From: a virus
Virus record (IMG/VR): IMGVR_UViG_3300045988_176782
Coordinates: 103,279-167,278 of that record
Length of the DNA stretch: 64,000 nt
Strand: one strand, 5' to 3'
The notes under the pieces: model-generated
Told to the model about the DNA's origin: nothing
The model's input: the letters and a program-made list of their open reading frames with translations, nothing else
Database searches by the model: none
Program-made: the position numbers and the translations under genes
Shown: in pieces, positions 40,811 through 59,236 of the stretch
Layout of the letters: each line of letters opens with the position of its first letter
Numbering within the stretch: the stretch's first letter is position 1

Positions 40811-40816
40811 AAATCC

Positions 40817-45282: not shown

Positions 45283-45313
45283 ATATACATAAGATGAAGA
45301 AAGGAAAGACGTT

Positions 45314-45770: not shown

Positions 45771-45901
45771 ATATTCAGAAAGTGAGAAACGGACAAGGCT
45801 TTGGCAAGTGAAGGAACTTTGATGTAGGAGATGAAAGTCGTTTGAACTAATAAAAAGTTCCTAATAAATTGGTGGGATGCGAGTGGTTTCTTACTTCTTA
45901 T

Positions 45902-46022: not shown

Positions 46023-46067
46023 ACAATCATTTTGCAATTAAAGTAAAAGAAGAAAGGAAATAAGAAT

Positions 46068-47164: not shown

Positions 47165-47861
47165 AAATCAAAGCTGTTTTGAGTTCCTTCCTACTATTCC
47201 TTCTAAATCCATTAATCTTATTCTAATTGACCCGCCATATGAAATTTCTCGCGCCACTAATTTTCAAAGTGGAGAAGAAACTGGAACTGATACTGACCGT
47301 TTTCGTATCTCTATGGATTTTGGCGATTGGGATAAGAATTTTTTTGGCTTAGAAAAGGTTTTTAAAGAAGCACAGCGGATTTTGGTTGATGGCGGCACAA
47401 TGATTTGTTTTTATGATTTATGGAAAATTGAAACAATTAAACAATATTATGAAAATAATAAGTTTAAACAAATTCGCTTTCTTGAATGGATTAAAACCAA
47501 TCCTGTGCCAATTAATAGCAAAATCAACTATTTAACTAACACTCGTGAAGTTGCGGTTTTGGGAATAAAAAAATCTAAACCAACTTTTAATAGTTCATAT
47601 GATAAGGGAATTTATGAATATCCTATTTGTCATGAAAAAGGCCGCTTCCATCCCACACAAAAGCCATTAGAGTTAATGGAAGCTTTGATTCTAAAACATT
47701 CTAATGAAGGCGACACTGTTTTAGATTGTTTTGCAGGAAGTGGCACAACTGGTGTTGCTGCGATTAAAAACAATCGGAAATTTATTGGTTGTGAAATTTC
47801 TCCAGAATATTATTCTCAATCTTTGGAACGACTAAAAAATTTGACAAAAATGAAAAATTAA
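47133..47861 (+). CDS. DNA methyltransferase, beta-class (N6A or N4C)
   Basis: LILIDPPYE (motif IV) near the N-terminus, and VLDCFAGSGTTGVAA (motif I) near the C-terminus. Confidence 0.8.
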   Translation: MTQLNLEETYKNQSCFEFLPTIPSKSINLILIDPPYEISRATNFQSGEETGTDTDRFRISMDFGDWDKNFFGLEKVFKEAQRILVDGGTMICFYDLWKIETIKQYYENNKFKQIRFLEWIKTNPVPINSKINYLTNTREVAVLGIKKSKPTFNSSYDKGIYEYPICHEKGRFHPTQKPLELMEALILKHSNEGDTVLDCFAGSGTTGVAAIKNNRKFIGCEISPEYYSQSLERLKNLTKMKN

Positions 47862-47869
47862 ATTATAAT
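47841..47869 (+). promoter_or_regulatory. promoter TTGACA-N17-TATAAT for the tRNA island
   Basis: -35 at 47841-46 (inside the end of the MTase CDS), -10 at 47864-69. Confidence 0.65.
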
Positions 47870-47882
47870 TAATACATAATGA

Positions 47883-47945
47883 ACGGCAGATACAGCAAAT
47901 TTTTAAGCTTGTGATTAGGGATTACAAATGCGATTTCCTGCCGTG
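47883..47945 (+). repeat. AAGAC..GTCTT-type element, covarying variant (E3)
   Basis: ACGGCAG-ATACAGCAAAT...CTGCCGT-G: same core, different but complementary flanks. Confidence 0.6.
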
Positions 47946-47950
47946 TTTAT

Positions 47951-48024
47951 AGGCGAATAAGATAATGGTAGTCCCGCGCTCTCCAAAAGCGTTCGTCCCT
48001 GTTCAAATCGGGGTTCGCCTGCCA
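47951..48024 (+). tRNA. tRNA-Trp (CCA anticodon), CCA end encoded
   Basis: Acceptor AGGCGAA/TTCGCCT. Anticodon stem GCGCT/AGCGT, loop CT-CCA-AA. T arm CCCTG-TTCAAAT-CGGGG. Confidence 0.75.
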
Positions 48025-48029
48025 AAATA

Positions 48030-48108
48030 AAGACGCATACAGCTAATATTTTGGTTAAAAAGTTTTCTACAAAAAAGCTTAAGAGATTCAATTTCTCAAT
48101 GCGTCTTG
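48030..48108 (+). repeat. AAGAC..GTCTT element copy (E4)
   Basis: AAGACGC-ATACAGCTAAT...GCGTCTT-G-TTTTT. Confidence 0.6.
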
Positions 48109-48115
48109 TTTTTAT

Positions 48116-48190
48116 GGCTCGTTAGCCTAGTGGTTTAGGCAGTAGACTGTTAATCTACCTAGGCTGGTTCAATTCCAGCACGAGCCTCCA
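48116..48190 (+). tRNA. tRNA-Asn (GTT)
   Basis: Acceptor GGCTCGT/ACGAGCC. D arm GCCT..AGGC. Loop CT-GTT-AA. T arm GCTGG-TTCAATT-CCAGC. CCA encoded. Confidence 0.85.
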
Positions 48191-48412
48191 TTAATTCAAT
48201 AATACGCGTGAGGCCGCGGTGCATATTGGCAAGAACAAGTATCATGAACTCAGCGCCCGAAGGAGAGGTAAATATCGGTTAACTACCGAGGCGCACCTAT
48301 GTGATGAATTGGACCCTTTCAAGTTGAAAGACACCTACGAGGGAGACGACGGAATAATTGGCCGCCTTTAAACGCTTGTCCATGAAAATGGCACTATTAT
48401 TGAATATTTAAA
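48191..48412 (+). ncRNA. structured RNA of about 220 nt closed by an 11-bp helix
   Basis: ATTCAATAATA (48194-204) pairs with TATTATTGAAT (48395-405). The interior is visibly GC-richer than the genome, with several complementary segments. No ORF. Confidence 0.45.
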
Positions 48413-48624
48413 AAACTCTGTCCTCAACGTGGATCGGAAAGTAATTTGCCTATTATTATAGGTAAGTCCACGACCTGATAATAGGTAAATTATGAAGTTT
48501 GTAACAGTGTTCTTCAAAATAACTTCTGAACAGCGGCATAAGAGCCACGCCAGAGGAGCGGATTGGTGTGAAAGATAGAGAGTTGCAATTATCTATTTAT
48601 TCACAGGCCATAAAGAAGTTATAT

Positions 48625-48740
48625 GCCAAGGTAGCTTAATTGGTAGAGCAATAGAGTAAAAAGGAATCTTGTAAAAGATTTTGGCCGCGATTGTTTATAT
48701 TTGGGTCTGTGTGTTCTCGGTTCAAGTCCGAGCCTTGGCT
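48625..48740 (+). ncRNA. tRNA-like gene with a 43-nt insertion in the anticodon loop
   Basis: Canonical acceptor GCCAAGG/CCTTGGC, D arm GCTT-AATTGGTA-GAGC, anticodon stem ATAGA/TCTGT, 5-nt variable region and T arm CTCGG-TTCAAGT-CCGAG. The loop is 50 nt and contains the hairpin AATCTT-GTAA-AAGATT. The 3' loop part ATTTGGG would give anticodon TTG. Confidence 0.45.
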
Positions 48741-48747
48741 TTACCAT

Positions 48748-48824
48748 TGCGGAGTAGAGAAGTGGTTTATCTCGTCAGCCTCATGAGCTGAAAAACGGAG
48801 GTTCAAATCCTCCCTCCGCAACCA
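48748..48824 (+). tRNA. tRNA with CAT anticodon (Met or Ile2)
   Basis: Acceptor TGCGGAG/CTCCGCA. Stem TCAGC/GCTGA, loop CT-CAT-GA. T arm GGAGG-TTCAAAT-CCTCC. CCA encoded. Confidence 0.8.
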
Positions 48825-48892
48825 ATAGAACTTTGAAAAACTTTATCCTTTGCCAAGTTTACCATAAAGAGGGTTTAAAGGCGAGGTCATGA

Positions 48893-48967
48893 TGCTCAAT
48901 AGCTTAACGGTAGAGCAGCGATTTCATAAGTCGTTAGATATAGGTTCAAATCCTATTTGAGCAACCA
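48893..48967 (+). tRNA. second tRNA with CAT anticodon (Met/fMet/Ile2)
   Basis: Acceptor TGCTCAA/TTGAGCA. D arm GCTT..GAGC. Loop TT-CAT-AA. T arm ATAGG-TTCAAAT-CCTAT. CCA encoded. Confidence 0.8.
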
Positions 48968-49093
48968 AGCGCTACACAGATTCCCACTAAACTACCACTG
49001 GCGTCTCAGACCCAATAGGAGAGCGGCGATATGTAGCTTGCGGAAGCGCTATATAAGAAGCGAAGTAAGTGGTGGGCGGTTTACCGCCCGATA

Positions 49094-49167
49094 TGCGGGT
49101 GTAGCTCAATGGTAGAATTCTAGCCTTCCAAGCTGGTTACGTGGGTTCGATTCCCATTACTCGCTCC
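49094..49167 (+). tRNA. tRNA-Gly (TCC)
   Basis: Acceptor GCGGGTG/TACTCGC. Stem CTAGC/GCTGG, loop CT-TCC-AA. T arm GTGGG-TTCGATT-CCCAT. CCA encoded. Confidence 0.8.
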
Positions 49168-49431
49168 AATTGATTTCAAGTAGAACAAGTTAGCTTCTTG
49201 TGAAAGAAATCTGCGCTATGACTACGGAAGACAGCGAGTCAGGGTTTGTAGAATTTTCCATACAATTCTACCGTGAACCAGTTCAATTACTGTTGCTCTG
49301 CTCTGCGACTGCGTGAAGGTCGGTTAAAAAGGTGAAGCGGGTTATTACTGCTTCCAAGAGGAGTAAGCGGGAGATGGGCGCAAAGTCTGCGGTGAGTCTA
49401 AATCCGTGCTAGCAAAATAGACCAATATTAT
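49168..49431 (+). ncRNA. structured inter-tRNA spacer (264 nt)
   Basis: No ORF. Perfect hairpins GTAGAATT..AATTCTAC and GATTTC..GAAATC. GC-richer than the flanks. Confidence 0.35.
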
Positions 49432-49506
49432 GGCTCCGTAGTCAAGCGGTTAAGACGCTGGGTTTTCATCCCAGAGACGCGAGTTCGACTCTCGCCGGAG
49501 CTACCA
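49432..49506 (+). tRNA. tRNA-Glu (TTC)
   Basis: Acceptor GGCTCCG/CGGAGCT. Stem CTGGG/CCCAG, loop TT-TTC-AT. T arm GCGAG-TTCGACT-CTCGC. CCA encoded. Confidence 0.8.
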
Positions 49507-49511
49507 TAGTA

Positions 49512-49611
49512 AAGACACAGGTTAAACAGCAATACTTATAGTGGTTAATAAAATTTTTGTTGTATAAAATTTTTAATGGGTTCAAATCCCACAAAAGAAC
49601 CCTGCGTCTTG
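49512..49611 (+). repeat. AAGAC..GTCTT element copy with inserted T-arm-like remnant (E5)
   Basis: AAGACAC...AACAGCAATAC...TGGGTTCAAATCCCA...GCGTCTT-G-TTTTTT. Confidence 0.5.
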
Positions 49612-49617
49612 TTTTTT

Positions 49618-49708
49618 GGAAAGGTGGCTGAGTTGGTTTAAAGTGACAGATTGCTAATCTGTTGAGGGATTTTCCCCTCCGGAGGTTCAAATCCTCTCCT
49701 TTCCGCCA
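49618..49708 (+). tRNA. tRNA-Ser (GCT), class II
   Basis: Acceptor GGAAAGG/CCTTTCC. Stem ACAGA/TCTGT, loop TT-GCT-AA. Long variable arm. T arm GGAGG-TTCAAAT-CCTCT. CCA encoded. Confidence 0.85.
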
Positions 49709-49711
49709 TAT

Positions 49712-49790
49712 GTGCGCGAGTAACCGAATTGGCATAGGTACTGGTCTAAGAAGCCAGGTTTTATGAGTTTAAGTCTCACCTTGCACACCA
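49712..49790 (+). tRNA. atypical tRNA, anticodon AAG (Leu codon CUU) but short variable region
   Basis: Stem CTGGT/GCCAG, loop CT-AAG-AA. Acceptor GTGCGCG/CTTGCAC has one mismatch. Irregular D arm. CCA encoded. Confidence 0.45.
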
Positions 49791-49793
49791 TTT

Positions 49794-49853
49794 AAGATAC
49801 TAATAACGATTATTATTTTCTTTACAGTTTTTAAAGAACAAGAATGTGTCTTG
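49794..49853 (+). repeat. AAGAC..GTCTT element, divergent copy (E6)
   Basis: AAGATAC...GTGTCTT-G. Confidence 0.4.
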
Positions 49854-49858
49854 ATTAT

Positions 49859-49933
49859 GGGGCAGTGACGCAATGGTAGCGTGTTAGCTTTGCAAGCTGA
49901 AAGTTGAGGGTTCAAATCCCTTCTGCTCCACCA
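49859..49933 (+). tRNA. tRNA-Ala (TGC)
   Basis: Acceptor GGGGCAG/CTGCTCC. D arm ACGC..GCGT. Loop TT-TGC-AA. T arm GAGGG-TTCAAAT-CCCTT. CCA encoded. Confidence 0.85.
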
Positions 49934-50053
49934 GACGTGCCAGTTTCTCCGATGGCCGTATAACTTAGAAATAAGTGAAGCAGAAAGTAGCTATTTTGCA
50001 TCGGAAAGCAAGTCTCCTTATTCCTTGCCATACATAAAAGAATAAGGACGCGT

Positions 50054-50130
50054 GCGCTGATAGCCCAATTGGCAGAGGCAATAGACTTAGGATCTATTCA
50101 GTGAGAGTTCAAATCTCTCTTGGCGTACCA
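50054..50130 (+). tRNA. tRNA with TAG anticodon (Leu CUA/CUG) but class I short variable region
   Basis: Acceptor GCGCTGA/TTGGCGT (3 wobbles). Stem ATAGA/TCTAT, loop CT-TAG-GA. T arm GAGAG-TTCAAAT-CTCTC. A73, CCA encoded. Confidence 0.6.
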
Positions 50131-50133
50131 TTT

Positions 50134-50198
50134 AAGACAGTTACAGCAAATCCTCAAAAGATGCGATTGTTAAAATTACGTTATTATTTACTGTCTTG
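50134..50198 (+). repeat. AAGAC..GTCTT element copy (E7)
   Basis: AAGACAG-TTACAGCAAAT...CTGTCTT-G. Confidence 0.6.
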
Positions 50199-50204
50199 CT
50201 ATTT

Positions 50205-50268
50205 CGGGATATAGTGCGATGTGCTGATAACATGCAAGTCGCGGATTCAAATCCCGCCCCTGTAACCA
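50205..50268 (+). ncRNA. truncated tRNA-like element (CUGAUAA loop, T arm, ..ACCA tail)
   Basis: Loop CT-GAT-AA at 50224-30. T-arm-like GCGGA-TTCAAAT-CCCGC. No convincing 5' acceptor strand or D arm. Alternative long hairpin CGGGAT...ATCCCG. Confidence 0.3.
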
Positions 50269-50269
50269 T

Positions 50270-50345
50270 CGGGGAATACGTCAATTGGCAGACGGCTTGC
50301 TTTGGGAGCAAGCAGCTCTCAGTTCAAATCTGAGTTCTCCGACCA
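50270..50345 (+). tRNA. tRNA-Pro (TGG)
   Basis: Acceptor CGGGGAA/TTCTCCG. D arm CGTC..GACG. Stem CTTGC/GCAAG, loop TT-TGG-GA. T arm CTCAG-TTCAAAT-CTGAG. CCA encoded. Confidence 0.85.
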
Positions 50346-50398
50346 GAGGAATTTATAATCCTTTTTCATAACAAATGGGAGAATTTCTCCCATCTCCT

Positions 50399-50468
50399 TG
50401 GCCGCAAGTAGAGAAATGTTATCTCACCGTTTTAACGGAGTAGGCGGTTCAATTCCGCCCTCGGCCAT
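50399..50468 (+). ncRNA. aberrant tRNA-like element with a 6-nt TTTTAA anticodon-type loop
   Basis: Good T arm GGCGG-TTCAATT-CCGCC and 6-bp acceptor TGGCCG/CGGCCA. The anticodon-type stem CACCG/CGGAG (one mismatch) encloses only TTTTAA, and the variable region is too short. Confidence 0.3.
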
Positions 50469-50598
50469 TAGTCGCCCTGGCACAGGGAGAAATGTGTTGC
50501 TCGGTAGGAGGGCATCCGCGGAGAATATACTATCCTACACAAAACAAAATGGGACTGATGCAGGTCCCACTTATAAGGGGAAGTTCCCCTTTTAATAT

Positions 50599-50684
50599 GG
50601 AGGAGTGGCGGAATGACGAGACGCAGTTGACTCAAAATCAACCACGAAGAAACACTGAGAGTTCAAATCTCTTCTCCTCTACCA
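50599..50684 (+). tRNA. tRNA-Leu (CAA), class II
   Basis: Acceptor GGAGGAG/CTCCTCT. Stem GTTGA/TCAAC, loop CT-CAA-AA. Long variable arm. T arm GAGAG-TTCAAAT-CTCTT. A73, CCA encoded. Confidence 0.85.
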
Positions 50685-50690
50685 GGCCTT

Positions 50691-50765
50691 AAGACAGATC
50701 AGCAATTTATTTAGATGAATGCATTTTTCACCTCCAAGGTAGGCTCTTGGTTGTATCCTGTCTTG
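50691..50765 (+). repeat. AAGAC..GTCTT element copy (E8)
   Basis: AAGACAG-ATCAGCAATTT...CTGTCTT-G-TTTTT. Confidence 0.55.
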
Positions 50766-50793
50766 TTTTTATTTCATATGAAAGGAACTAATT

Positions 50794-51033
50794 ATGATTA
50801 GAGCAAATATTGAATTAATTACTGCTACTGACATGCGAAGTTTTATTTCTTGTGTTAATAGCGATGGCACCGCAGACAAGTATACTCTTGAGAATTTTGA
50901 TGGCAGTTATCGTGCTGATGCACGTTCTATGTTAGGTGTTGCCTACGCGACCGCGGAATTTGATAGTTTATTTCTTGTTAATAGAATTCATGATGGTGTT
51001 TTTCCAAAAGGTATTGATAAATTTCGTAAGTGA
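50794..51033 (+). CDS. hypothetical protein
   Basis: Intact ORF with RBS. Confidence 0.5.
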   Translation: MIRANIELITATDMRSFISCVNSDGTADKYTLENFDGSYRADARSMLGVAYATAEFDSLFLVNRIHDGVFPKGIDKFRK

Positions 51034-51065
51034 AGTCGTAATGTAATATTACGACTTTATTTTTT
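51034..51065 (+). terminator. intrinsic terminator
   Basis: AGTCGTAAT/ATTACGACT hairpin plus a T-run. Confidence 0.75.
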
Positions 51066-51092
51066 GACAAAAGTAAATTTTTCTTTTATAAT
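51064..51092 (+). promoter_or_regulatory. promoter TTGACA-N17-TATAAT
   Basis: -35 at 51064-69, -10 at 51087-92. Confidence 0.7.
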
Positions 51093-51113
51093 AAAAGAAA
51101 AGGAGATAAAAAC

Positions 51114-51386
51114 ATGATAAAAAGTGTGCCTATTAAATATGAAGAAAGTATTGAAGTGCAACGTTTATTTCATAAGTATAATGCATTGCTTGCAGTTTTG
51201 GCTTATATGAATGATAATAGTTCTAAATATACAGATTTTTTAGATAAAAAAGTGAATGAAGCTACCGAGTTATATATTGAATTAGAACAAGCAAAAGATA
51301 AATATGGCATGCGATATAAGCCACAAGGTGATTGGCAACATTATACTTTTGACTTTGATAATAATGTTATTATATATGAGGATTAA
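51114..51386 (+). CDS. small accessory protein of the CXXX-repeat modification locus
   Basis: AAGGAG RBS; 90 aa; directly precedes the rSAM maturase (TAAATG junction). Confidence 0.5.
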   Translation: MIKSVPIKYEESIEVQRLFHKYNALLAVLAYMNDNSSKYTDFLDKKVNEATELYIELEQAKDKYGMRYKPQGDWQHYTFDFDNNVIIYED

Positions 51387-52691
51387 ATGAAAAAGTCTTA
51401 TTTAGATTTAATTGCAACTTTATATTCAGAACCTGATTTACGAAGTTGTAGAAACATTACCTTATAGGTTTGCGATGATTGCTGTTTAAAATGTTCATAT
51501 TGCTATCAAATTCATAAAAGCCACAATTATATGACAAAAGAGACTGCAAAAGCCATTATTGATTTACTATTTAGAATGTATGATGAAGATAAGCCAGACG
51601 CATTTATCAATCATACAACTCATGGTATAATTCTTGATTTTATCGGTGGCGAGCCTCTAATGAACGTTGAAATTATGGAATTTGCTACTGAATACTTTAT
51701 TGACCAATGTTTGCAAAAAAATCACGAGTGGCTTTATAATTTTCGCACAAGTTTTGCAACAAATGGTATTCTTTATTTTGAACCAAAAGTATAGGCATAT
51801 TTACAAAAATTTCACAATTTTATTTCTATGACCGTTAGTATTGATGGCCCAAAAGAAATTCATGATATTTGCCGTCTTGACCGTGATGGTAATGGTAGTT
51901 TTGAACGAGCAAGTACCGCGGCGCACCATTATTGGGAATATTATGGAAAAGATGTCGGGGGACGAGATGAAACTAAAGTTACCATTGCTCCAGACAATTT
52001 ATCTCAATTAAATAAAATTGTAGATTATTTCTTAAATGAAGGCGTTACAGTGATTAATGCCAATCCAGTTTATGAAGTAGAATGGACAGTAGAATAGGCA
52101 AAAATATATTATAATGAATTAAAAAAATTAGCAAATAAATTGTTATTAAATTTAGAAATTAAATGTAGTATTTTTGATAGCCATTAGAACGTCCCCTTGC
52201 CTATTAGTGATAATACGAACTGGTGCGGCGGTGATGGACATATGTTAGCTTTTGACCCGCACGGAAATGCTTATCCTTGTTTGAGATATATGGAAAGCTC
52301 TTTAGGTGGAGAAGTTGAGCCTTTAATTATTGGTGATACTAATGGTATTTATAATACGCCAGAAAGTCAAGAAATTAGGTGTAAACTTTGTACATTAACT
52401 CGTAGTAATTAGTCTACGGAAGAATGTACGCATTGTTCAATCGCCGCGGGCTGCTCTTGGTGCAGTGCTTGGAATTATCAGCAATTTAAAAAGATCGGTA
52501 AGCGTAGCACGAATATTTGTTGGATGCACCGAGCCGCAGCATTGGCCAATGTCTATTATTGGAATCTTAAATACCGTTTAGAAGAAAATGAAAAAAGATT
52601 CCCAATTTATCTTGAACAAAAATATGCTTTGTAGATAATACCCTCTGAAGAATATGATTTGTTGCTTTCACTTTCTCAATGGGGAGAGTGA
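51387..52691 (+). CDS. radical SAM/SPASM peptide maturase (CXXX-repeat-target type candidate); six in-frame TAG
   Basis: ORFs 51531-51794, 51828-52097 and 52197-52412 are all in the frame of ATG 51387. ITL*VCDDCCLKCSYCYQ (CxxxCxxC). C-terminal CGGDG...PCLRY...CTHCSIAAGCSWCSAWN is SPASM-like. Confidence 0.75.
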
Positions 52692-52696
52692 TATTT

Positions 52697-53239
52697 ATGA
52701 GCTGGCTAAAAGGAGATAAAATTACAGCAGAGGATTTCATTGCTATTAAAGAAAAAGTTAAAAACGAATTAGCTCGGCGAAATGCAGAAGGAAGTGTAGC
52801 AAACTATGCAACGAGCTATACTGATATGCCTGTATAGAAAGGGAAAATAAAAGTTAGCCATATTACAGAAATTGTTGAACCATTGAGTCATATTAATAAT
52901 GTAGATTATGATTTAAATAAACCAATTACAATAAAATCTTTAACTACAATTCAAACAATGTTAAATAGTTTAACCACAGCAGAAAAGGCTGCATCAACAT
53001 TAGAAGCAACCGGGTGTAAAGCTTCCTGCACTGGTTTATGTTATACATCTTGTTCAGAAACGTGTCGTTCTTGTGGAGATAGTTGCAGTCAAAATTGTGA
53101 TACTGGATGCAATTGGACTTGTAAAGGGTCATGCCGCAATACTTGTTCTGGACGCTGCAAAGGTAGCTGTGGAACTACTTGCCAATTGGGCTGTTCTAAC
53201 AATTGCAAAGGAAGCAGTGTAGGTGGCTGTTCTGCATAA
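52697..53239 (+). CDS. CXXX-repeat protein: tail-fibre-like N-domain plus C-terminal run of 18 Cys; one in-frame TAG (52835)
   Basis: MSWLKGDKITAEDFIAIKEKVKNEL N-terminus. C-terminus CKASCTGLCYTSCSETCRSCGDSCSQNCDTGCNWTCKGSCRNTCSGRCKGSCGTTCQLGCSNNC (15 of 17 spacings are exactly CxxxC). Confidence 0.7.
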
Positions 53240-53476
53240 AATATACAGTAAATTAAATAAATATTAAGTGCTATAATGATCGAACAAAAATTTATTCCTT
53301 TAATAATTCAATATAATATATTCAATATATTAAATACTAAATTGCTTGTATTATTAGATTTGATTTTCCTAACCACAAAACCGTTGCTTTAGAATCTATT
53401 ATAAAATAAGGCATAGAATAATTTCCTAATTTTAACCTAAAACAAATTTAATCTAGGAGCTTCGTTGCTCCTACTT

Positions 53477-53550
53477 GCCGAAATAGCATAATGGTAGTGC
53501 AAGGCTCTTGTAAAGCTTAGATTTCAGTTCAATTCTGAATTTCGGCTCCA
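53477..53550 (+). tRNA. tRNA-Thr (TGT)
   Basis: Acceptor GCCGAAA/TTTCGGC. D arm GCAT..GTGC. Stem AGGCT/AGCTT, loop CT-TGT-AA. T arm TTCAG-TTCAATT-CTGAA. CCA encoded. Confidence 0.85.
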
Positions 53551-53992
53551 TTTAACCAGACTGAGAGTTAGAGGTAAATACCTGCTCGTGATGATTTTAA
53601 ATGTAATCATGAAAACCTCATAAAATATGGCACGCAGAGAGCTAGGCTCTACAATGGAAACGCTATACGAGATAGGAGACCCCTTACAGACGTAACAGTG
53701 TATGCCAAGATGCCGCGGCATAAGGTGCAATTCCTGAGTAATTGGTGTCGGCAAGTCCGAGCTGTTTTAAAGGAGCGGGCAGAGCGCAAAAATATGATGG
53801 GACAACTGCTTACCTCATATTTTGCTCAGTAGGCGGTCGTGCCGCAGGAAGGCCCACAGGTATGTGGAGTATAGCAAGTCGGGGAGTTAGATGCAAGCCA
53901 GAATTGGGTTAGAACCGACAGGGAGAATAATTCTCTAACAGAGTAAAGGTATGGATGCGGCAATGAGACGCGACCTTTACTCTTTTTATTTT
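53551..53992 (+). ncRNA. structured RNA of about 440 nt between tRNA-Thr and the DUF2828/Ro-like gene, ending in an intrinsic terminator
   Basis: No sense ORF; GC-richer than the surroundings. Long-range GTTAGAG (53566-72) / CTCTAAC (53927-33). T-arm-like GTCGG-CAAGT-CCGAG. Terminal hairpin AGAGTAAAGGT...ACCTTTACTCT plus a T-run. Confidence 0.5.
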
Positions 53993-53997
53993 AAAAT

Positions 53998-54026
53998 TTG
54001 ACTTTTCTAAAATTTTCTCCTATAAT
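53998..54026 (+). promoter_or_regulatory. promoter TTGACT-N17-TATAAT
   Basis: -35 at 53998-54003, -10 at 54021-26. Confidence 0.7.
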
Positions 54027-54087
54027 ATGTCTATAAAAGATAAGCAATAGCTCTATTGCTTCCAAAATGAAAAGGAGAAAAGAAAAC

Positions 54088-55575
54088 ATGAATAATCTAC
54101 TAAATTCCCTAAAGCAAGAAACCAACTATACCTACACCACCAATGGCGCAGTAGCGCACAAATCTACCCTAAACAAAGTCCTTGATCTATTTGCCCTTGG
54201 CGGCGCTTATCGTGTAAAGAGTGACAATGACGTTATTCTTCTCTTTAAAGAAGCATATGACGAGAATCCTGAACTCGCGCTAAAGTGCTTGTTCTTTATT
54301 CGTGATATTCGCGGCAATGGTTATGGTGAACGTCGCTTTTTCCGTGTATGCCTTCATTGGCTTGCTACACAACATCCCGAAGTTGTGAAGCGAAATATTA
54401 ACTATATTCCATTTGTTGGCCGTTATGACGACCTCTATGCTATAATGGATACTCCTTGTATGCTGGATGCTTTTACTTTCTTTGATCGCCAACTGCGACT
54501 TGATATGGAATGCCAAACTCCCAGTTTATGTGCAAAGTGGATTTGGTCAATGAATTGTTCTTCTGCCGAACATAAGAAATATGGTAAGGCACTTGCAGAT
54601 TATATGCGTTTAACTCCTAAGCAATATCGTAAGATGCTTACTGGTTTGCGCGCGAAGATTAAGATTGTTGAAACTCTAATGTCTCAGAATCGTTGGGATG
54701 AAATTCAATTTGATAAATTACCTTCTAAGGCCGGCTTTAAGTATCGTAATGCTTTTGCAAAGAACGATTACACTAAAGAACGCTATGAAGCCTTTATGAA
54801 GTCTAAGACCACTAAGGTAAATGCAAAAACCTTATTCCCCTATGAAGTCGTAAAGCAAGCTATTAACGCTGATTGGCAAGATGAACTAACCTGCAATACT
54901 CTTGAGAAGTATTGGGAGAATCTTGCTGACTATTTCAATAATGCTACTTTTAATGCTCTGGCCATTGTTGATACTTCTGGTTCTATGCGTAGTGGTGCTG
55001 CTTCCGCCGCGCCTATTGATGTGGCAATTTCTCTTGGTATGTATTGTGCGGAAAAAGCTAATGGTCCTTTTAAGAATCATTATATCAGTTTTTCCTCTAA
55101 GCCTCAATTGATTGAAATTAAGGGTGTCAATTTTGTTGACAAGGTTCAGCGTATTTACCAAACTAATCTTTGTGAAAATACTAACATTGAAGCTACTTTT
55201 GATCTTCTTTTAAATAATATTGTGAAGTATAATTTAAATGAAGAAGATATTCCAGAGTATCTTGTAATTATTTCCGATATGCAGTGGGACGAAGGGGTTT
55301 GTGAAATTCGCGGGCGATACTATATGCCTGCGGCGAATCCTCAAACTTTAATTGACCAAATTAAAGAAAAGTGGAAAAGTGTCGGAATAAGGATGCCTAA
55401 ATTAATTTTCTGGAATGTCAACGCAAAACATCCTGTCATCCCTGCTCTTGATGGAAATTACAGTTATATCAGCGGCTTTAGCCCCGCGATTTTTGAACAA
55501 ATTATGACCGGTAAAACCGGCGTAGAACTAATGCTTGAAGCACTAAGTTCTGAACGTTATAAAGACATTCATTAA
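54088..55575 (+). CDS. DUF2828-type protein: helical-repeat N-domain plus C-terminal vWA (Ro60/TROVE-like architecture)
   Basis: YTTNGAVAHKSTLNKVLDLFALGGAYR N-terminal signature. MIDAS IVDTSGSM. GGAGAA RBS before ATG 54088 (ATG 54067 is also in frame). Confidence 0.6.
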   Translation: MNNLLNSLKQETNYTYTTNGAVAHKSTLNKVLDLFALGGAYRVKSDNDVILLFKEAYDENPELALKCLFFIRDIRGNGYGERRFFRVCLHWLATQHPEVVKRNINYIPFVGRYDDLYAIMDTPCMLDAFTFFDRQLRLDMECQTPSLCAKWIWSMNCSSAEHKKYGKALADYMRLTPKQYRKMLTGLRAKIKIVETLMSQNRWDEIQFDKLPSKAGFKYRNAFAKNDYTKERYEAFMKSKTTKVNAKTLFPYEVVKQAINADWQDELTCNTLEKYWENLADYFNNATFNALAIVDTSGSMRSGAASAAPIDVAISLGMYCAEKANGPFKNHYISFSSKPQLIEIKGVNFVDKVQRIYQTNLCENTNIEATFDLLLNNIVKYNLNEEDIPEYLVIISDMQWDEGVCEIRGRYYMPAANPQTLIDQIKEKWKSVGIRMPKLIFWNVNAKHPVIPALDGNYSYISGFSPAIFEQIMTGKTGVELMLEALSSERYKDIH

Positions 55576-55601
55576 GAGAGCTTAGGCTCTCTTATTTTTT
55601 T
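55574..55601 (+). terminator. intrinsic terminator
   Basis: AAGAGAGC/GCTCTCTT hairpin plus a T-run. Confidence 0.75.
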
Positions 55602-55616
55602 AGGTGGTGAAACTTT

Positions 55617-57911
55617 ATGAGTGGAGGATTTTCTGGCGTTGGCGGCTATGCTGTTATTCTAACTCCAGAAGGCGCATCGCTATATGGCGGCGGAAATGCA
55701 AGTTTTGAAGCACTTGTCACTGCTGCAACAGGCCAAATAGATATTGAGGCAACAACATAGGAAATTCTTGCTATTTTATATTAGCAATATGAAGAACAAA
55801 CAATAATAGAAAGGAATATACGGGCAGCTTATGGCAATGAAACTATTGAAAATATTATAAAATCCTTACGCGGAGAAACTTCTAAAGTAATGAGCGGCAC
55901 ACCAGAAATGATACAAAATCTTAAGCAAAATTTGGCCGACTGGCAGAACAAAGAAAAGAGTCGTAAAGAAACAATCGCCCAAATTCGTGGAGATTCTGAA
56001 CATTATTATCAAGTTTATAATACTTTAGTAGACGGATTAGTTGCCTTAGCTAATCAATTAACTAATATGGATGAAAAAGCATTACGAACTGGTCCTGGTA
56101 TCATTGAAACATTAATTCATAAATGGGAAAATTCTTCCAGTCAATTAGAGCAAGAAGCCGCGAAAATGGCGCAATCTTTTTCCAAATTAGATTTAGATAA
56201 TGAATCATTTATTAAAGATATGAATAGTACCTTTGACAAAATTAGAGAGACAATTAACAAAGAAGACATGGCCTATTCTTATGACCCTACTTCTAATACC
56301 ACTGAACTTAAAAATCCAGAATTAACCGCGGCTATTTAGGAATTACTTGCCTTTCAAGAAAAAATCCGCAGTGATATAGATAAAAAAAGTAAACGCAGTA
56401 AAAAGAAAAAACAAAGACTTCTTGCTATGTGGAATAATATTAAATTTGCCAATTGGAATGCAAGAACCAGTAAACTTGGTCAGGCATTAAATCAAAAAGG
56501 TAAAAACGACCCAATGATAATTTTAAATAGTTTAAGGCAAAAAGTCTATGATGTGGCTAAATAGCAATTAGAGGAAAACACTGGACGAAAAGCCACAGAT
56601 AAAGAGCAACAAAAACTTCGTTCTTCAATTACAGAAATTCAAACTAAAGCTGTCAATGAGCTAAGTGAACAAACTAAAGACTATGCAGTACGGCAACTTA
56701 TTTCACTTGTATTTGGCGACCAAGCACAAATTGGTCCATTAAAAGGACTACTTGCCGAGCAATTTAAAACTGCAATGGCTAAATCCTATATACAAGATGT
56801 AAATAATTCAGTTCAGCAAGCCTATCAATAGGCCATTGGTGCAGTATGGGAAGAAATTATAACAAAGCTTTGGCTAACAGGGAAAGATACAAGAAATGTA
56901 AAAATATTAGTACCAGGCCCTGAAGACCTTAAAGACATAGTATAGTCTGATGATGATTTAAGAATAGGAACAGATATTAATGCTTTTGATAATGAAAATA
57001 AACGGTATGGCACGCAACATCGTTTAAAGCGAACGAATGAAGAAATTTTTAAAGGCTATCAAAAAAATAAGAATAAAAAAGATGCCCTTAGCGTTTCATA
57101 GCGCGAACTCAAAACTTGGTTAAAGTCAATTAGCGGGAAAAAAGATTTACCAAACTTACAAGCAAGTTTAGACAACTATTTTAATGAAAATATTATTGAC
57201 CTCCCTTCTATTCAAAAACAATTTGATAAAGTAGATAGTGTTCAAGCGGCGACAGTGGGAAAGAATCCATATTACATTGCTTTCTCAGAAAAGCAACGTA
57301 CTGCAGGTGGTATGACTGGTTCTATTGGTTTAATGGGCGATGATATTAGCAGATTTAATAATATGAAAGCTTCTGGAACTAATTTATATAGTTCTTTAGA
57401 TTTAATTAGTTAGAATGGTTCAGACAAATCTATTCCTACTGCACAAATAATGTTCGCAATGCTGAATCAATCTACTGCTTCTATATATCATGGTGATGCT
57501 GGTGTTCAGGAGTAGATAAGAAATTATATTAAAATGCAACTTGCGGCAAAAGTATTAGATTTGGCATTTAATAGAGTAAATTTTTTCTTCAATCAGCAAC
57601 AAAAAGGTATTGATATGAATCAAAAAAATACTCTATTTGTTATGAATGTTAATAATCTTTATGTCTCTTCCACGGCCATATTACGCGGCCTTATTGAAAA
57701 ATTTCAAAATTATCAAGACGTAATTGCTGACATCGTTTATGTTAATGTAGAATTTGATACTGCCCACCAAGCTTATCCCCTATGGATGACCGCGATTGCA
57801 AGTCAAGGTGGCGGCGATGCAAATCAAGCAGCCCGTTGGGGATTTGTTGCTAATCAAGTTGCTGCTAATACTAAATTGAATGTTTCTCTCAGCATTGCAA
57901 ATTTAATGTAG
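55617..57911 (+). CDS. large (764 aa) virion-type protein, nine in-frame TAG
   Basis: ATG 55617; ORFs 55890-56339 and 57534-57911 are in the same frame, and the frame stays open throughout if TAG is read as sense. Confidence 0.6.
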
Positions 57912-57928
57912 TTATTTGATTTTTAAAT

Positions 57929-57957
57929 TTGACATAAATAAAAATTTTAAATATAAT
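57929..57957 (+). promoter_or_regulatory. promoter TTGACA-N17-TATAAT
   Basis: -35 at 57929-34, -10 at 57952-57. Confidence 0.7.
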
Positions 57958-57988
57958 AAAGAAAAAAATAAGGAAGTGAACGCCTACT

Positions 57989-59236
57989 ATGAAGGCATAT
58001 TTAGCAGCGCCCATTTTTACTGAACGAGACCGAAATTTTAATTCTTATTTAGAAGCAGAAATTTTGAAAGTATGCCCTGATTTAGATTTGTATTTGGCGC
58101 AAAATAACCAAACAATTAACGATAAATCACAATGTGCAACTTCTGCTGATATTTATGTAGGAGATATTTCTCGGCTAAAACAAGCAGATTTAGTAATTAG
58201 TATTATGTCTGGAGACCTTCCTCCTATAGGAAGCTCCTATGAAACGGCGTATTTTTGTGCATTATGCGAACAAGACGACCGAAAAACTATTATTGCACTT
58301 TATGACGATAGCCGAGAAGGCAGCAAAACTTATTCTTCTGGTAAATTGGACGCAATGTTAAGTGGGATTGGCGAGAATCAATGGCCATATGTTAATTTGT
58401 TAGCAGTTGGTTACGTTAAAAAGAATGGCGTAATTTGTTCTACCAGTGAAGAACTTATTCAGCAAGTAAAGCGCCAATACGACCTTTTTACTGATTCTCG
58501 CCAAAGCGGTATTTATAAAATTACAAATTTAAAGAACAATATGATTTATATTGGTCAAACAAAAAACCTCCACGATAGGAAACTTCAGCATTGGCGACCT
58601 AGCGAACGTGAGAAGTATCGTGATGCTCCTTTATATCAAGATATGAATCAAATAGGTTTAGATTATTTTAAATTTGAGATTATTGAAAAATGTGATTTAG
58701 AGCAATTATCTGAACGTGAGCGATATTGGATTGACTACTATGATAGTTATAATTTAGGTTATAATCGTAGCAATGGTGGCTGTACTCTTGAAAATATGGA
58801 TAACTTTACAAGTAGTCAAACCACAGAAATTTATTGTTATAACTTAGATGGCAGTTTTGATAAAAAATATTGCAGTATCTCAAGTGCCGCTCGTGCTATA
58901 GGTTTTCCTCAAAGTCGTGGCGATATAAGCAGATGTGCTTTATTAAATGACAACCATCATCAATCCGGGGGAAAAATGTGGAGTTATCACTATACTGAGA
59001 ATTTTCCTCCATATCAACCTCCATTAAGGGGAAAACAGATTCATTGCTATGATTTAAAAACCAGATTATATATAAAAAGCTATGATAATGCCGTTCGTGC
59101 TGGTGAGGAAATTTTTGGGCATCGCGCTCCACATATTAATGATGCCGCTACAGGAAAGCGTTGTAGCTGTGGTGGGTATCTTTGGGCATATAAATATTTT
59201 GAACGTCTGCCAGAGAAATATCATGAAAATTTATGA
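57989..59236 (+). CDS. fusion protein: nucleoside 2-deoxyribosyltransferase-like N-domain plus GIY-YIG nuclease plus DNA-binding repeats
   Basis: N-terminus MKAYLAAPIFTERDRNFN...ADLVISIM...SSYETAYF (NDT fold). Middle SGIYKITNLKNNMIYIGQTKNL...RERYWIDYYDS..GYNRSNGG (GIY-YIG). C-terminal GGKMWSY / CGGYLWAY repeats. Confidence 0.65.
   Translation: MKAYLAAPIFTERDRNFNSYLEAEILKVCPDLDLYLAQNNQTINDKSQCATSADIYVGDISRLKQADLVISIMSGDLPPIGSSYETAYFCALCEQDDRKTIIALYDDSREGSKTYSSGKLDAMLSGIGENQWPYVNLLAVGYVKKNGVICSTSEELIQQVKRQYDLFTDSRQSGIYKITNLKNNMIYIGQTKNLHDRKLQHWRPSEREKYRDAPLYQDMNQIGLDYFKFEIIEKCDLEQLSERERYWIDYYDSYNLGYNRSNGGCTLENMDNFTSSQTTEIYCYNLDGSFDKKYCSISSAARAIGFPQSRGDISRCALLNDNHHQSGGKMWSYHYTENFPPYQPPLRGKQIHCYDLKTRLYIKSYDNAVRAGEEIFGHRAPHINDAATGKRCSCGGYLWAYKYFERLPEKYHENL

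What the first reader, a model, noticed from the sequence alone, without database searches (positions are those of the whole stretch)
53477..55575. tRNA-Thr plus a 440-nt structured RNA immediately upstream of a DUF2828/Ro60-like vWA protein: possible phage Ro-Y-RNA-type RNP
- The protein has the N-terminal signature T.NGA.A..ST...LDLF and a C-terminal vWA domain with MIDAS DTSGS. The overall helical-repeat plus vWA layout is that of Ro60/TROVE proteins.
- Bacterial and phage Ro orthologues are typically encoded next to their Y RNAs, which contain tRNA-like modules, and next to RNA-repair genes.
- Here the neighbour is a tRNA followed by an ORF-free structured RNA of about 440 nt.
- That RNA has a long-range helix 53566-72 with 53927-33, a T-arm-like GTCGG-CAAGT-CCGAG hairpin and its own terminator.
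- RNA ligase, kinase/phosphatase and RlaP-like genes are present in the same window.
Basis: inference. Interest (0 to 1): 0.8.

Follow-up and report, generated by a model that had tools for sequence, protein, structure and literature searches.

The report
New phage RNA beside Ro-like gene
In a large gut phage, a tRNA gene is followed by a structured RNA that no catalogue lists and then by a gene for a Ro60-shaped protein. Across phages that protein's constant neighbour is the tRNA cluster, not this RNA, so a dedicated Ro/Y-RNA pair is not shown.

Summary
tRNA-Thr(UGU) lies at 53477-53550. It is followed by a G+C-rich, non-coding stretch of about 440 nt (53551-53992) that ends in a strong intrinsic terminator. 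A separately promoted DUF2828/DUF7788 gene follows at 54088-55575.

The protein models as a Ro60-like ring plus vWA/MIDAS domain. All 11 best PDB fold matches are Ro60, Rsr or TROVE structures. No TROVE sequence model matches it.

The RNA matches no Rfam 15 family, including Y_RNA and YrlA. Only its first ~105 nt are conserved. They form a module supported by covariation and found in four lineages of 115-200 kb gut phages, always inside tRNA islands. The remaining ~330 nt are specific to this lineage.

The RNA does not travel with the gene. The module is absent from all 87 other DUF2828 loci searched. Where both occur, they lie 0.1 to 23 kb apart.

What does travel with DUF2828 is the tRNA island: 63 of 80 viral loci and most cultured phages examined. 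These islands also carry ROOL, OLE-like and tmRNA genes and, in some phages, YrlA-like RNAs.

Verdict: a real new RNA family and a Ro-like protein linked to tRNA islands. The specific Ro/Y-RNA pairing is unsupported.

The parts
53477..53550 (+). tRNA-Thr (anticodon UGU), CCA end encoded
   Evidence: ARAGORN. Rfam tRNA 66.4 bits. Conserved in L001 and L006.
53551..53992 (+). Non-coding RNA of about 440 nt. It is presumably co-transcribed with the tRNA and ends at an intrinsic terminator. The 5' end is inferred from tRNA 3' processing.
   Evidence: No conserved ORF, even with TAG read through. G+C 0.47-0.54. 94-97% identical in close relatives. No Rfam family at E <= 10.
53552..53655 (+). Conserved 5' module of about 105 nt. 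This is the only part shared by all four phage lineages.
   Evidence: Alignment A4 of 21 distinct sequences. Covariation counts. CM R1 scores 99.5 bits. nhmmer E 4e-25.
53567..53574 (+). P1, 5' strand (GTTAGAGG). It pairs with 53932-53939.
   Evidence: RNAalifold on 7 window-type sequences; an A-to-G change gives a G-U pair. In other lineages the partner (UCUAA or CAAA) follows hairpin 2 directly (sequences).
53932..53939 (+). P1, 3' strand (TCTCTAAC). In this lineage about 280 nt are inserted between hairpin 2 and this strand.
   Evidence: compared with L010, L011 and L008.
53571..53619 (+). P2 (GAGGU 53571-53575 with ACCUC 53615-53619), which encloses hairpin 1 (53591-53610)
   Evidence: P2 is invariant in 21 of 21 sequences, so covariation cannot test it. 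Hairpin 1 is a different, covarying hairpin in each lineage.
53634..53652 (+). Hairpin 2: a 6-bp stem with a conserved 7-nt loop AGCUNGG that resembles a D-loop
   Evidence: Stem variants GTGGTG/CACCAC, GTAGAG/CTCTAC, GTACAG/CTGTAT and ATATAG/CTATAT. Four pairs change on both sides.
53722..53736 (+). Hairpin AAGG-UGCAAUU-CCUG with a 7-nt loop resembling a T-loop
   Evidence: One compensatory change, A-U to G-C, in 3 of 7 sequences. Found by regex.
53747..53761 (+). It may be the remnant of a tRNA T-arm.
   Evidence: Present in the sequence. 11 nt (53752-53762) are identical to part of the T-arm of the tRNA at 48625-48740. The consensus fold does not use it.
53941..53992 (+). Intrinsic terminator: stem 53941-53982, T-run 53983-53992
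   Evidence: Sequence. Consensus fold. Window-to-L002 similarity starts at 53983, inside this T-run.
53998..54026 (+). Sigma-70-type promoter of the DUF2828 gene (TTGACT, 17 nt, TATAAT)
   Evidence: 11 of 12 matches. It is duplicated on both sides of the 3.9-kb cassette in the L002/L006 phage.
54088..55575 (+). Gene for the DUF2828/DUF7788 protein (495 aa), Ro60-like fold. The GGAG ribosome-binding site is at 54074-54077.
   Evidence: Pfam. PHROG 850, E 9e-125. AlphaFold2 pTM 0.80. Foldseek. Homologues start at MNNLLN.
54970..54984 (+). MIDAS motif DTSGS of the vWA domain
   Evidence: D295, T296, S297, S299, T365 and D397 are invariant in 36 homologues.
55573..55604 (+). Terminator of the DUF2828 gene
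   Evidence: 9-bp stem followed by a T-run.

Best explanation
The interval holds three separate elements that belong to the phage's tRNA/ncRNA island.

1. **tRNA.** A functional tRNA-Thr.
2. **RNA.** A non-coding RNA transcribed with the tRNA and ended by its own terminator.
   - Its 5' end is presumably made when the tRNA is cut out (inferred).
   - Its first ~105 nt are a conserved module, closed by helix P1, that defines an uncatalogued family of phage tRNA-island RNAs.
   - The other ~330 nt are an insertion specific to this lineage.
3. **Protein gene.** An independently promoted gene for a DUF2828/DUF7788 protein with the Ro60 architecture: a helical-repeat ring plus a vWA/MIDAS domain.

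The gene and the RNA are neighbours here because both are island components. In this phage group the DUF2828 gene marks the downstream end of the island, and in this lineage the RNA happens to be the last RNA gene.

**Most likely mechanism (inferred by analogy with Ro60/Rsr).** The ring binds structured or misfolded island transcripts: tRNAs, tRNA-like RNAs and possibly this RNA. The MIDAS face recruits a partner such as a nuclease or a repair enzyme. Together they give quality control, protection or repair of the phage's own RNA pool, alongside the RNA ligase and phosphoesterases encoded in the same genome. The 440-nt RNA would then be one possible client or cofactor among several, not a dedicated Y RNA.
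For: **Shown by tool results.**
- The tRNA is real.
- The terminator followed by a promoter separates two transcription units.
- The RNA is non-coding.
- The RNA module occurs in window-type, L008-type, L010-type and L011-type phages, and always directly follows a tRNA or sits between tRNAs.
- Covariation supports the module: 92.4% of cells paired, 8 pairs with changes on both sides, 0 of 500 shuffles, and 32-44% paired when the partners are slid.
- The 3' parts of the different lineages show no significant similarity (z = 1.9 and 0.3).
- In L008, tRNA-Asn and tRNA-Ser follow the module directly.
- The protein fold is Ro60-like and the MIDAS is invariant.
- The module is absent from all 87 other DUF2828 loci.
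- DUF2828 follows same-strand tRNAs in 63 of 80 viral loci, against 7 of 80 with tRNAs downstream. In 16 loci the last tRNA is less than 250 nt away.
- In L011-type phages the gene lies about 270 nt after tRNA-Cys and 17-23 kb downstream of the RNA.
- The tRNA link also holds in distant cultured phages:
  - a FelixO1-like phage;
  - Bacillus phage Thrax2;
  - Listeria phage LP-083-2, which also has RtcB 1.3 kb away;
  - Campylobacter phage CP8;
  - Klebsiella phage phi1_175008;
  - Enterococcus phage Bop;
  - Pseudomonas phage Astolliot.
- The islands next to DUF2828 carry varied RNAs:
  - ROOL;
  - an OLE-like RNA;
  - tmRNA;
  - YrlA-like RNAs.
- An RNA ligase gene lies in the window.
Against: - RNA binding by any DUF2828 protein has not been shown, and no TROVE sequence model matches this one.
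- Foldseek TM-scores are only 0.38-0.52, and three segments of the model have low confidence.
- Many of the 80 viral loci come from related phages, so the tRNA association is inflated by shared ancestry. No formal background model was computed.
- Two T4-like phages (Vibrio PVA23 and Aeromonas avDM12) show no tRNA within 2.5 kb.
- In three of the four lineages with the RNA, the gene lies within 0.1-4.4 kb on the same strand. This would also fit a lineage-specific partnership.
- No expression data exist for either the RNA or the protein.
Confidence: 0.6

Rival explanations
1. The 440-nt RNA, or its 105-nt module, is the dedicated Y-RNA-like partner of the DUF2828 Ro-like protein. It is bound through its terminal helix and gates or tethers the ring, as YrlA does for Rsr.
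For: - The protein has a Ro60-like fold.
- RNA and gene are on the same strand and within 0.1-4.4 kb in window-type, L008-type and L010-type phages.
- The module is about the size of a Y RNA, is closed by a terminal helix (P1), and has a hairpin that resembles a D-arm.
- Homologous proteins in Wilder and L004 have YrlA-like neighbours.
- Phage Ro60 with adjacent Y-like RNAs has been shown experimentally in Thermus phage phiLo (PMC12135203).
Against: - No Y_RNA or YrlA covariance-model match.
- No CGAA or GNCGAAN0-1G motif.
- No T-arm or acceptor-like stem.
- The module is absent from all 87 other DUF2828 loci.
- RNA and gene are 17-23 kb apart in L011-type phages.
- A 3.9-kb cassette separates them in a relative whose protein is 95% identical.
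- They are separate transcription units.
Confidence: 0.15
2. The RNA works without the protein, as an RNA-only or tRNA-related element of the island. It could resemble ROOL or GOLLD, or act as a processing or decoy element for enzymes that act on tRNAs. The DUF2828 gene would then be an unrelated neighbour.
For: - The RNA is always inside a tRNA island and its distance to DUF2828 varies.
- In L010 it sits directly before ROOL.
- ROOL and GOLLD share this context and have no known protein partner (PMC5737381, PMC12286853).
- tRNAs are inserted right after the module in L008, which recalls the tRNAs found in GOLLD linkers.
Against: - Every lineage with the RNA that could be checked also encodes DUF2828 in the same genome.
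- The conserved part is only about 105 nt, far smaller than the ornate RNAs.
- No function can be read from the structure.
Confidence: 0.2
3. Most of the 440 nt is decaying tRNA-derived or spacer sequence with no function of its own. Only the transcript ends matter, that is, tRNA processing and termination.
For: - The 3' ~330 nt are specific to one lineage.
- The stretch contains a T-arm-like remnant identical over 11 nt to part of a nearby tRNA's T-arm.
- The single-sequence fold z-score is only -1.08.
- The island holds other tRNA-like debris, such as the pseudo-tRNA at 50398-50470.
Against: - The 5' module is conserved with compensatory changes across lineages whose DUF2828 proteins are only 49-63% identical.
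- The RNA is 94% identical between relatives whose wider locus is 89.6% identical.
- G+C is far above background.
- Substitutions in the window-type RNA mostly keep the predicted pairs.
Confidence: 0.05

Closest known systems
Ro60/Rsr with Y RNAs (YrlA/YrlB in Salmonella and mycobacteria; Yrn1 in Deinococcus; phiRo60 with Yrl1/Yrl2 of Thermus phage phiLo)
   Same: - The protein architecture is the same: a ring of helical repeats plus vWA/MIDAS.
- The gene sits in an RNA-repair setting, with an RNA ligase in the window and RtcB next to the Listeria homologue.
- Structured RNAs are encoded on the same strand nearby.
- Some DUF2828 homologues have true YrlA-like neighbours.
   Different: - No TROVE sequence model matches.
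- The RNA here has none of the YrlA hallmarks and is about 440 nt, not about 100-130 nt.
- The RNA is not conserved with the gene.
- The gene's constant neighbour is a tRNA array, not a Y RNA.
ROOL and GOLLD (also OLE): large ornate RNAs of phages and prophages near tRNA islands
   Same: - The genomic context is the same: a phage tRNA island, on the same strand as the tRNAs, ending in a terminator (PMC5737381, PMC12286853).
- tRNAs can be embedded in or abut the RNA (L008).
- The function is unknown.
   Different: - It matches none of these models.
- Only about 105 nt are conserved.
- It is known only from a narrow group of gut phages.
- Nothing suggests that it forms oligomers.
PHROG 850 / Pfam DUF2828+DUF7788, annotated 'Ro-like RNA-binding protein' in SEA-PHAGES genomes
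   Same: Full-length membership: E 9e-125 and Pfam scores above the curated cut-offs. There are 704 cultured-phage records with homologues.
   Different: Nothing differs at the protein level. No function has been tested for the family, apart from toxicity of LeBron gp53 ('Ro-like RNA-binding protein') when overexpressed (PMC13148394); its homology to this protein was not tested here. No paper in the searched library describes a link to tRNA islands.

Membership tests
tRNA | Cloverleaf with anticodon, detected by ARAGORN and by Rfam RF00005 above threshold | tested here: met
   tRNA-Thr(tgt) at 53477-53550; 66.4 bits against a threshold of 29.
DUF2828/DUF7788 (PHROG 850) | Profile match above the curated cut-off, over the full length | tested here: met
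   PF25043 119 bits (cut-off 27.1) and PF11443 113.6 bits (cut-off 29). phrog_850 E 9.4e-125 over residues 1-492.
Ro60/TROVE | Sequence match to the TROVE domain (Pfam) or to solved Ro60/Rsr sequences | tested here: not met
   Pfam scan at E <= 1 returned only DUF7788, DUF2828 and VWA_2, with no TROVE family. phmmer and a 36-sequence profile against PDB sequences find no Ro60.
Ro60/TROVE | Fold: helical-repeat ring followed by a vWA domain | tested here: met
   AlphaFold2 pLDDT 77, pTM 0.80. Foldseek ranks 1-11 are all Ro60, Rsr or TROVE, with 528-595 aligned columns, probability 1.0 and TM 0.38-0.52. The next hits match the vWA domain only.
Ro60/TROVE | MIDAS (DxSxS...T...D) in the vWA domain | tested here: met
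   D295, T296, S297, S299, T365 and D397 are invariant in 36 homologues.
Ro60/TROVE | Binds Y RNA or misfolded RNA | not testable with these tools
   Needs RIP, EMSA or a solved structure.
Y RNA / YrlA | Match to the Rfam Y_RNA or YrlA (RF02553) covariance models | tested here: not met
   No hit at E <= 10 in 53400-54100. No hit at E <= 1 in 38000-58000. The model's sensitivity is limited: it also missed the Wilder YrlA-like RNA.
Y RNA / YrlA | GNCGAAN0-1G motif in the Ro-binding stem (PMC4201824) | tested here: not met
   There is no CGAA anywhere in 53551-53995.
Y RNA / YrlA | tRNA-like domain: T-arm, acceptor-like stem and D-arm, in that order | tested here: not met
   The regex scan finds no T-arm inside the RNA. 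Only a D-loop-like hairpin 2 and a hairpin with a 7-nt loop are present.
Y RNA / YrlA | Terminal helix formed by the 5' and 3' regions | tested here: inconclusive
   P1 (53567-74 with 53932-39) is predicted and compatible with an A-to-G change. Equivalent short helices in other lineages were seen by eye only.
Y RNA / YrlA | Encoded within 2-4 kb of the Ro gene on the same strand, and conserved with it | tested here: not met
   True in the window (about 0.1 kb). However, the module is absent from all 87 other DUF2828 loci and lies 17-23 kb away in L011-type phages.
ROOL / GOLLD / OLE | Covariance-model match | tested here: not met
   No hit on 53400-54100 at E <= 10. ROOL itself lies elsewhere in the window, at 40831-41406.

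The most novel reading that the evidence does not exclude
DUF2828/DUF7788 proteins are a large, phage-specific branch of Ro60-like rings whose real clients are the transcripts of phage tRNA islands. These clients would include tRNAs, YrlA-like tRNA mimics, and island RNAs such as this new module and perhaps ROOL. That would be the first protein partner or guardian for these orphan RNAs. It could protect or repair the phage tRNA pool against host nucleases that target tRNAs. In this reading the 105-nt module is a new, non-YrlA type of Ro ligand.
Probability: 0.25. Interest if true: 0.8.

Novelty: new variant of a known kind. Interest (0 to 1): 0.55.

Why it matters
**RNA.** If the module is functional, it adds a new family to the small set of unexplained structured RNAs in phage tRNA islands (ROOL, GOLLD).

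**Protein.** The protein result matters more. The family is very common: more than 7,000 clusters at 90% identity and 704 cultured-phage records, including FelixO1-like, Listeria P100-like, Campylobacter and mycobacterial phages. It has a Ro60-like fold and sits next to tRNA clusters in phages of unrelated hosts. This gives a concrete, testable idea: phages carry their own Ro-type RNA surveillance for their tRNA and ncRNA cargo. The idea can be tested in genetically tractable phages. It also suggests candidate protein partners for orphan island RNAs.

**Annotation.** At least one 'tRNA' in a mycobacteriophage record appears to be a YrlA-like RNA.

Tried and rejected
- **Known RNA families.** Rfam 15 at gathering thresholds and at E <= 10 found only the tRNA and chance-level hits (ohsC, mt-tmRNA, MIR405) on the RNA.
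- **Cultured phage DNA.** blastn of the locus against 50,697 phage records gave no match.
- **Protein coding with TAG recoding.** A 122-codon frame appears, but close relatives do not keep it.
- **A paralogous RNA at 48191-48624.** Several short colinear matches led nowhere: the global alignment scores no better than shuffles (z = 0.08).
- **Homology of the 3' ~330 nt to the L008 or L011 3' domains.** Not significant (z = 1.9 and 0.3).
- **RNA homologues beside the gene in L003 and L004.** None by nhmmer or CM.
- **Chance pattern matches discarded.**
  - L007.
  - L017-19, L021, L024, L030, L033 and L036.
  - All 7 genome-contig hits, L208-L214. The RNA was therefore not found in the genomes representing 185,579 species.
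- **A generic G+C-rich RNA between the last tRNA and DUF2828 in other phages.** Those gaps are A+T-rich or shorter than 250 nt.
- **ROOL as the general partner.** It lies within 5 kb upstream in only 4 of the 78 viral DUF2828 loci outside the window's own lineage (L087, L073, L106 and L010), plus a Listeria phage.
- **A YrlA-like element in the window.** There is no CM hit. The regex finds one orphan T-arm (50443), which belongs to a pseudo-tRNA in normal arm order, not a permuted YrlA.
- **A pseudoknot between ACCUGCU and the hairpin 2 loop.** The uncompensated G-to-A change in L001 and L006 does not support it (read).
- **A small CM of phage YrlA-like RNAs.** Abandoned because the acceptor-like stems of the four examples do not align.
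Full report
**1. What is at the coordinates**

ARAGORN and Rfam both call tRNA-Thr(UGU) at 53477-53550. From 53551 to the DUF2828 start there is no ORF longer than 76 aa.

G+C rises to 0.47-0.54 at 53650-53900, against 0.15-0.31 just upstream and 0.26-0.28 just downstream.

A long hairpin (53941-53982) followed by TTTTTATTTT ends the stretch. Directly after it comes a near-consensus promoter, TTGACT-17-TATAAT, at 53998-54026 (11 of 12 matches). A GGAG site and the ATG at 54088 follow, and this is where homologues begin. The RNA and the protein gene are therefore separate transcription units.

The phage recodes TAG. It carries a tRNA(CUA) at 39464-39553, and a radical-SAM/SPASM-like gene (a reading of its sequence; no Pfam match) at 51531-52420 has four in-frame TAG codons. 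I therefore re-examined coding potential with TAG read through. A 122-codon frame opens in the window, but it is lost in relatives that are 94-95% identical, because they differ by 1-nt indels. The stretch is non-coding.

**2. The RNA is real, but only its first ~105 nt are a conserved family**

No Rfam 15 family matches 53400-54100 even at E <= 10, apart from the tRNA. Y_RNA, YrlA, ROOL, GOLLD and OLE are all negative. The single-sequence fold is unremarkable (z = -1.08).

Homologues came from several sources:
- *Close relatives.* L001 carries the same tRNA plus RNA at 94% identity, while the wider locus is 89.6% identical.
- *A more distant relative.* L008, whose protein is 63% identical, revealed a conserved 5' motif.
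- *Collection scans.* Scanning with that motif found 7 viral stretches and 25 metagenome stretches, of which 17 are true members, several from human-gut assemblies. None of the 7 hits in the species-representative genomes is real.

Four lineages emerge:
- *Window-type.* The RNA follows tRNA-Thr and is about 430 nt long.
- *L008-type.* The module is followed directly by tRNA-Asn and tRNA-Ser, then more ORF-free sequence, then tRNA-Pro.
- *L010-type.* The RNA, with its own terminator, is followed by ROOL.
- *L011-type.* These are phages of about 190-200 kb. The RNA follows tRNA-Leu(CAA), is about 330 nt long and has its own terminator.

The 21 distinct sequences align over about 105 nt (A4). With a structure of P2, hairpin 1 and hairpin 2:
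- 92.4% of cells form pairs.
- 8 pairs change on both sides.
- 0 of 500 shuffles reach the observed values.
- Sliding the partners drops pairing to 32-44%.

Hairpin 2 is the clearest element. Its 6-bp stem varies (GTGGTG/CACCAC, GTAGAG/CTCTAC, GTACAG/CTGTAT, ATATAG/CTATAT) under an invariant, D-loop-like AGCUNGG loop. P2 (GAGGU/ACCUC) never varies, so it is untested.

A closing helix P1 follows hairpin 2 directly in the other lineages: UUAGA/UCUAA, UUGGA/UCUAA and UUUG/CAAA (read). In the window-type, its 3' strand lies about 280 nt further on, giving 53567-53574 with 53932-53939.

Beyond the module, the lineages share no significant similarity. Within the window-type, substitutions mostly keep the predicted pairs, and two pairs show compensatory changes. 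Diversity is too low to fix the fold.

**3. The protein is Ro60-like in fold and already filed as 'RNA-binding'**

- *Family membership.* Pfam gives DUF7788 and DUF2828 above their cut-offs and only a weak VWA_2. PHROG 850, 'RNA-binding protein', matches end to end (E 9e-125).
- *Sequence searches for Ro60.* Sequence and profile searches of the PDB find no Ro60.
- *Size of the family.* It is huge: more than 7,132 clusters among the candidates scored.
- *Fold.* An AlphaFold2 model built from 36 homologues (pLDDT 77, pTM 0.80) gives Ro60, Rsr or TROVE structures as its 11 best PDB matches. These include Xenopus and human Ro60, Deinococcus Rsr, and 9KOP, the phiRo60 structure of Thermus phage phiLo (PMC12135203). 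The matches are full length with probability 1.0. All later matches cover only the vWA domain.
- *MIDAS.* The MIDAS residues are invariant.

So 'works like Ro60' is plausible. Membership of the TROVE sequence family was tested and not met.

**4. Does the RNA go with the gene? No, except by shared location in the island**

- *L002/L006 phage* (protein 95% identical). A 3.9-kb cassette of radical-SAM-like genes (judged from their sequences) and a Cys/Ser/Gly-rich peptide gene lies between RNA and gene. It is flanked by duplicated copies of the promoter region, and the RNA sits 4.4 kb upstream.
- *L008.* Two small genes and further tRNAs intervene.
- *L010.* ROOL and two tRNAs intervene.
- *L011-type.* The gene exists but lies 17-23 kb downstream on the same strand, about 270 nt after a tRNA-Cys.
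- *All other loci.* nhmmer and a calibrated covariance model (R1) find the module in none of 87 other DUF2828 loci: 81 from viral contigs or assemblies and 6 from cultured phages.
- *Gaps upstream of the gene.* In those other loci the gap before the gene is short or A+T-rich, so it holds no hidden structured RNA.

**5. What does go with the gene: tRNA islands**

- Of 80 viral DUF2828 loci, 63 have same-strand tRNAs within the stored upstream flank. In 16 of them the last tRNA is less than 250 nt away. Only 7 have tRNAs downstream.
- A rough expectation for a random gene in a ~165 kb genome is about 10% (my estimate from the island sizes seen here; I did not compute it formally).
- The association recurs in unrelated cultured phages:
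  - A FelixO1-like phage has the gene, then more than 20 tRNAs starting 165 nt downstream.
  - Bacillus phage Thrax2 has 17 tRNAs, then the gene.
  - Campylobacter phage CP8 has 5 tRNAs, then the gene.
  - In Klebsiella phage phi1_175008 the gene is embedded in the array, 22 nt after tRNA-Arg.
  - Enterococcus phage Bop and Pseudomonas phage Astolliot also show it.
  - Listeria phage LP-083-2 shows it together with a ROOL-like RNA and RtcB.
- Exceptions are two T4-like phages and, weakly, a staphylococcal phage.
- The islands carry assorted RNAs:
  - ROOL;
  - tmRNA;
  - an OLE-like RNA 365 nt upstream of the gene in L098 (85 bits);
  - YrlA-like permuted tRNA mimics in L004 (38.9 bits) and L013.
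- In mycobacteriophage Wilder, the feature annotated 'tRNA-Asn' just after the DUF2828-type 'Ro-like' gene is not a tRNA by ARAGORN or Rfam. It folds as a basal stem plus T-arm, acceptor-like stem and D-arm. This is the YrlA plan described by Chen et al. (PMC4201824).

**6. Mechanism**

*Shown:*
- the gene organisation and the transcription signals;
- the conservation and pairing of the module;
- the protein fold;
- the genomic associations.

*Inferred:*
- The tRNA and the RNA are co-transcribed and separated by tRNA processing.
- The protein binds island transcripts as Ro60 binds Y RNAs and misfolded RNAs. Its MIDAS face recruits a partner. This serves quality control, protection or repair of the phage's RNA pool, together with the RNA ligase (42237-43565) and the phosphoesterases.

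I put about 0.6 on this island-component reading. I put about 0.15 on a dedicated Ro/Y-type pair with this RNA, about 0.2 on an RNA that acts independently of the protein, and about 0.05 on a largely non-functional spacer.

**7. Known or new**

- Phage Ro60 with adjacent Y-like RNAs is known (PMC4201824, PMC12135203). TROVE proteins in jumbo-phage RNA-repair sets have been noted (PMC7824862).
- The 'Ro-like' annotation of this protein family exists (PMC13148394).
- ROOL and GOLLD near tRNA islands are known, and ROOL has no known protein partner (PMC5737381, PMC12286853).
- Not found in Rfam 15 or in the searched literature: this RNA module, and the general placement of DUF2828 genes at tRNA islands.
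- I therefore rate it a new variant of a known kind, of moderate interest.

**8. Caveats**

- Many viral loci are related, so the counts are not independent.
- The Rfam YrlA model is insensitive to the phage examples, so a divergent tRNA mimic in the window cannot be excluded. The pseudo-tRNA at 50398-50470 is one candidate client.
- There are no expression or binding data.

Noticed in passing
window 40562-41406 and 42237-43565: A full-length ROOL RNA (295.8 bits) lies at 40831-41406, preceded by an abiF RNA motif at 40562-40598. An RNA ligase gene (PF09414) follows about 0.8 kb downstream. RNA ligase followed by Form_Nir_trans is also seen in L008; the stored L008 locus starts inside the ligase gene, so whether a ROOL lies upstream there is not known.
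   Followed up: partly
window 39464-39553 and 51531-52420: A tRNA with a CUA anticodon (an amber suppressor, labelled tRNA-Pyl by ARAGORN) is present. A radical-SAM/SPASM-like gene (a reading of its sequence; no Pfam match) has four in-frame TAG codons, and only 2 of 28 long ORFs end in TAG. The phage appears to recode TAG, so ORF calls under table 11 are fragmented here.
   Followed up: partly
L074, L075, L096 and L112 (70-107 nt downstream of the DUF2828 gene): In several phages a CUA-anticodon suppressor tRNA sits immediately downstream of the DUF2828 gene.
   Followed up: no
window 48191-48740: A 435-nt ORF-free segment lies inside the tRNA array. It is followed by a 116-nt 'tRNA' called only by Rfam (48 bits), which may carry an intron or insertion. 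The segment is conserved in the relative L006 and has no significant similarity to the RNA at 53551.
   Followed up: partly
window 50346-50598 (tRNA-like 50398-50470): There is an orphan perfect T-arm (GGCGG-TTCAATT-CCGCC, 50443-50459). It sits in a tRNA-like fold with a 5-bp acceptor stem and an 'anticodon' loop of only 4-6 nt. The 253-nt region folds better than shuffles (z = -3.2). It is a pseudo-tRNA or tRNA mimic that could be a client of a Ro-like protein.
   Followed up: partly
L122 5033-5154 (Mycobacterium phage Wilder, KX580962.1 about 42058-42179): The annotated 'tRNA-Asn' is not recognised as a tRNA by ARAGORN or Rfam. It folds as an 8-bp basal stem plus T-arm, acceptor-like stem and D-arm, which is the YrlA-like plan. 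It lies directly downstream of the DUF2828-type 'Ro-like RNA binding protein' gp55. Flanking repeats of GTGGAC...GTCCAG suggest further Y-like units.
   Followed up: partly
L004 1869-1986; L013 6410-6534 and 6600-6656: YrlA-like permuted tRNA mimics lie inside phage tRNA islands, below the Rfam threshold (38.9 and 27.5 bits). In L012-L016 a pair of them forms a ~340-nt insertion right after the new RNA's terminator; the insertion is absent from L011.
   Followed up: partly
L098 4244-4636: An OLE-like RNA (85.1 bits, gathering score 50) matches the conserved 3' core of OLE and has a tRNA-like insert. It lies in a 135-kb phage contig, 365 nt upstream of the DUF2828 gene. OLE is otherwise known from extremophilic and anaerobic Firmicutes.
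   Followed up: partly
L125 1471-2022 (Listeria phage LP-083-2): A ROOL-like RNA (87.4 bits, E 3.5e-16, just under the gathering score of 99.1) lies in a cultured P100/A511-like Listeria phage, about 1 kb upstream of its DUF2828 gene. An RtcB ligase gene lies 1.3 kb downstream of that gene.
   Followed up: no
window 51531-53239 compared with L002 1-3900: A cassette of radical-SAM-like genes (judged from their sequences; Pfam gave no match to the one window ORF scanned) plus a Cys-rich (window) or Cys/Ser/Gly-rich (L002) peptide gene lies upstream of tRNA-Thr in the window. In the L002/L006 phage a different such cassette lies between the RNA and the DUF2828 gene, flanked by duplicated copies of the DUF2828 promoter region. 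This suggests cassette exchange by recombination at promoter repeats.
   Followed up: partly
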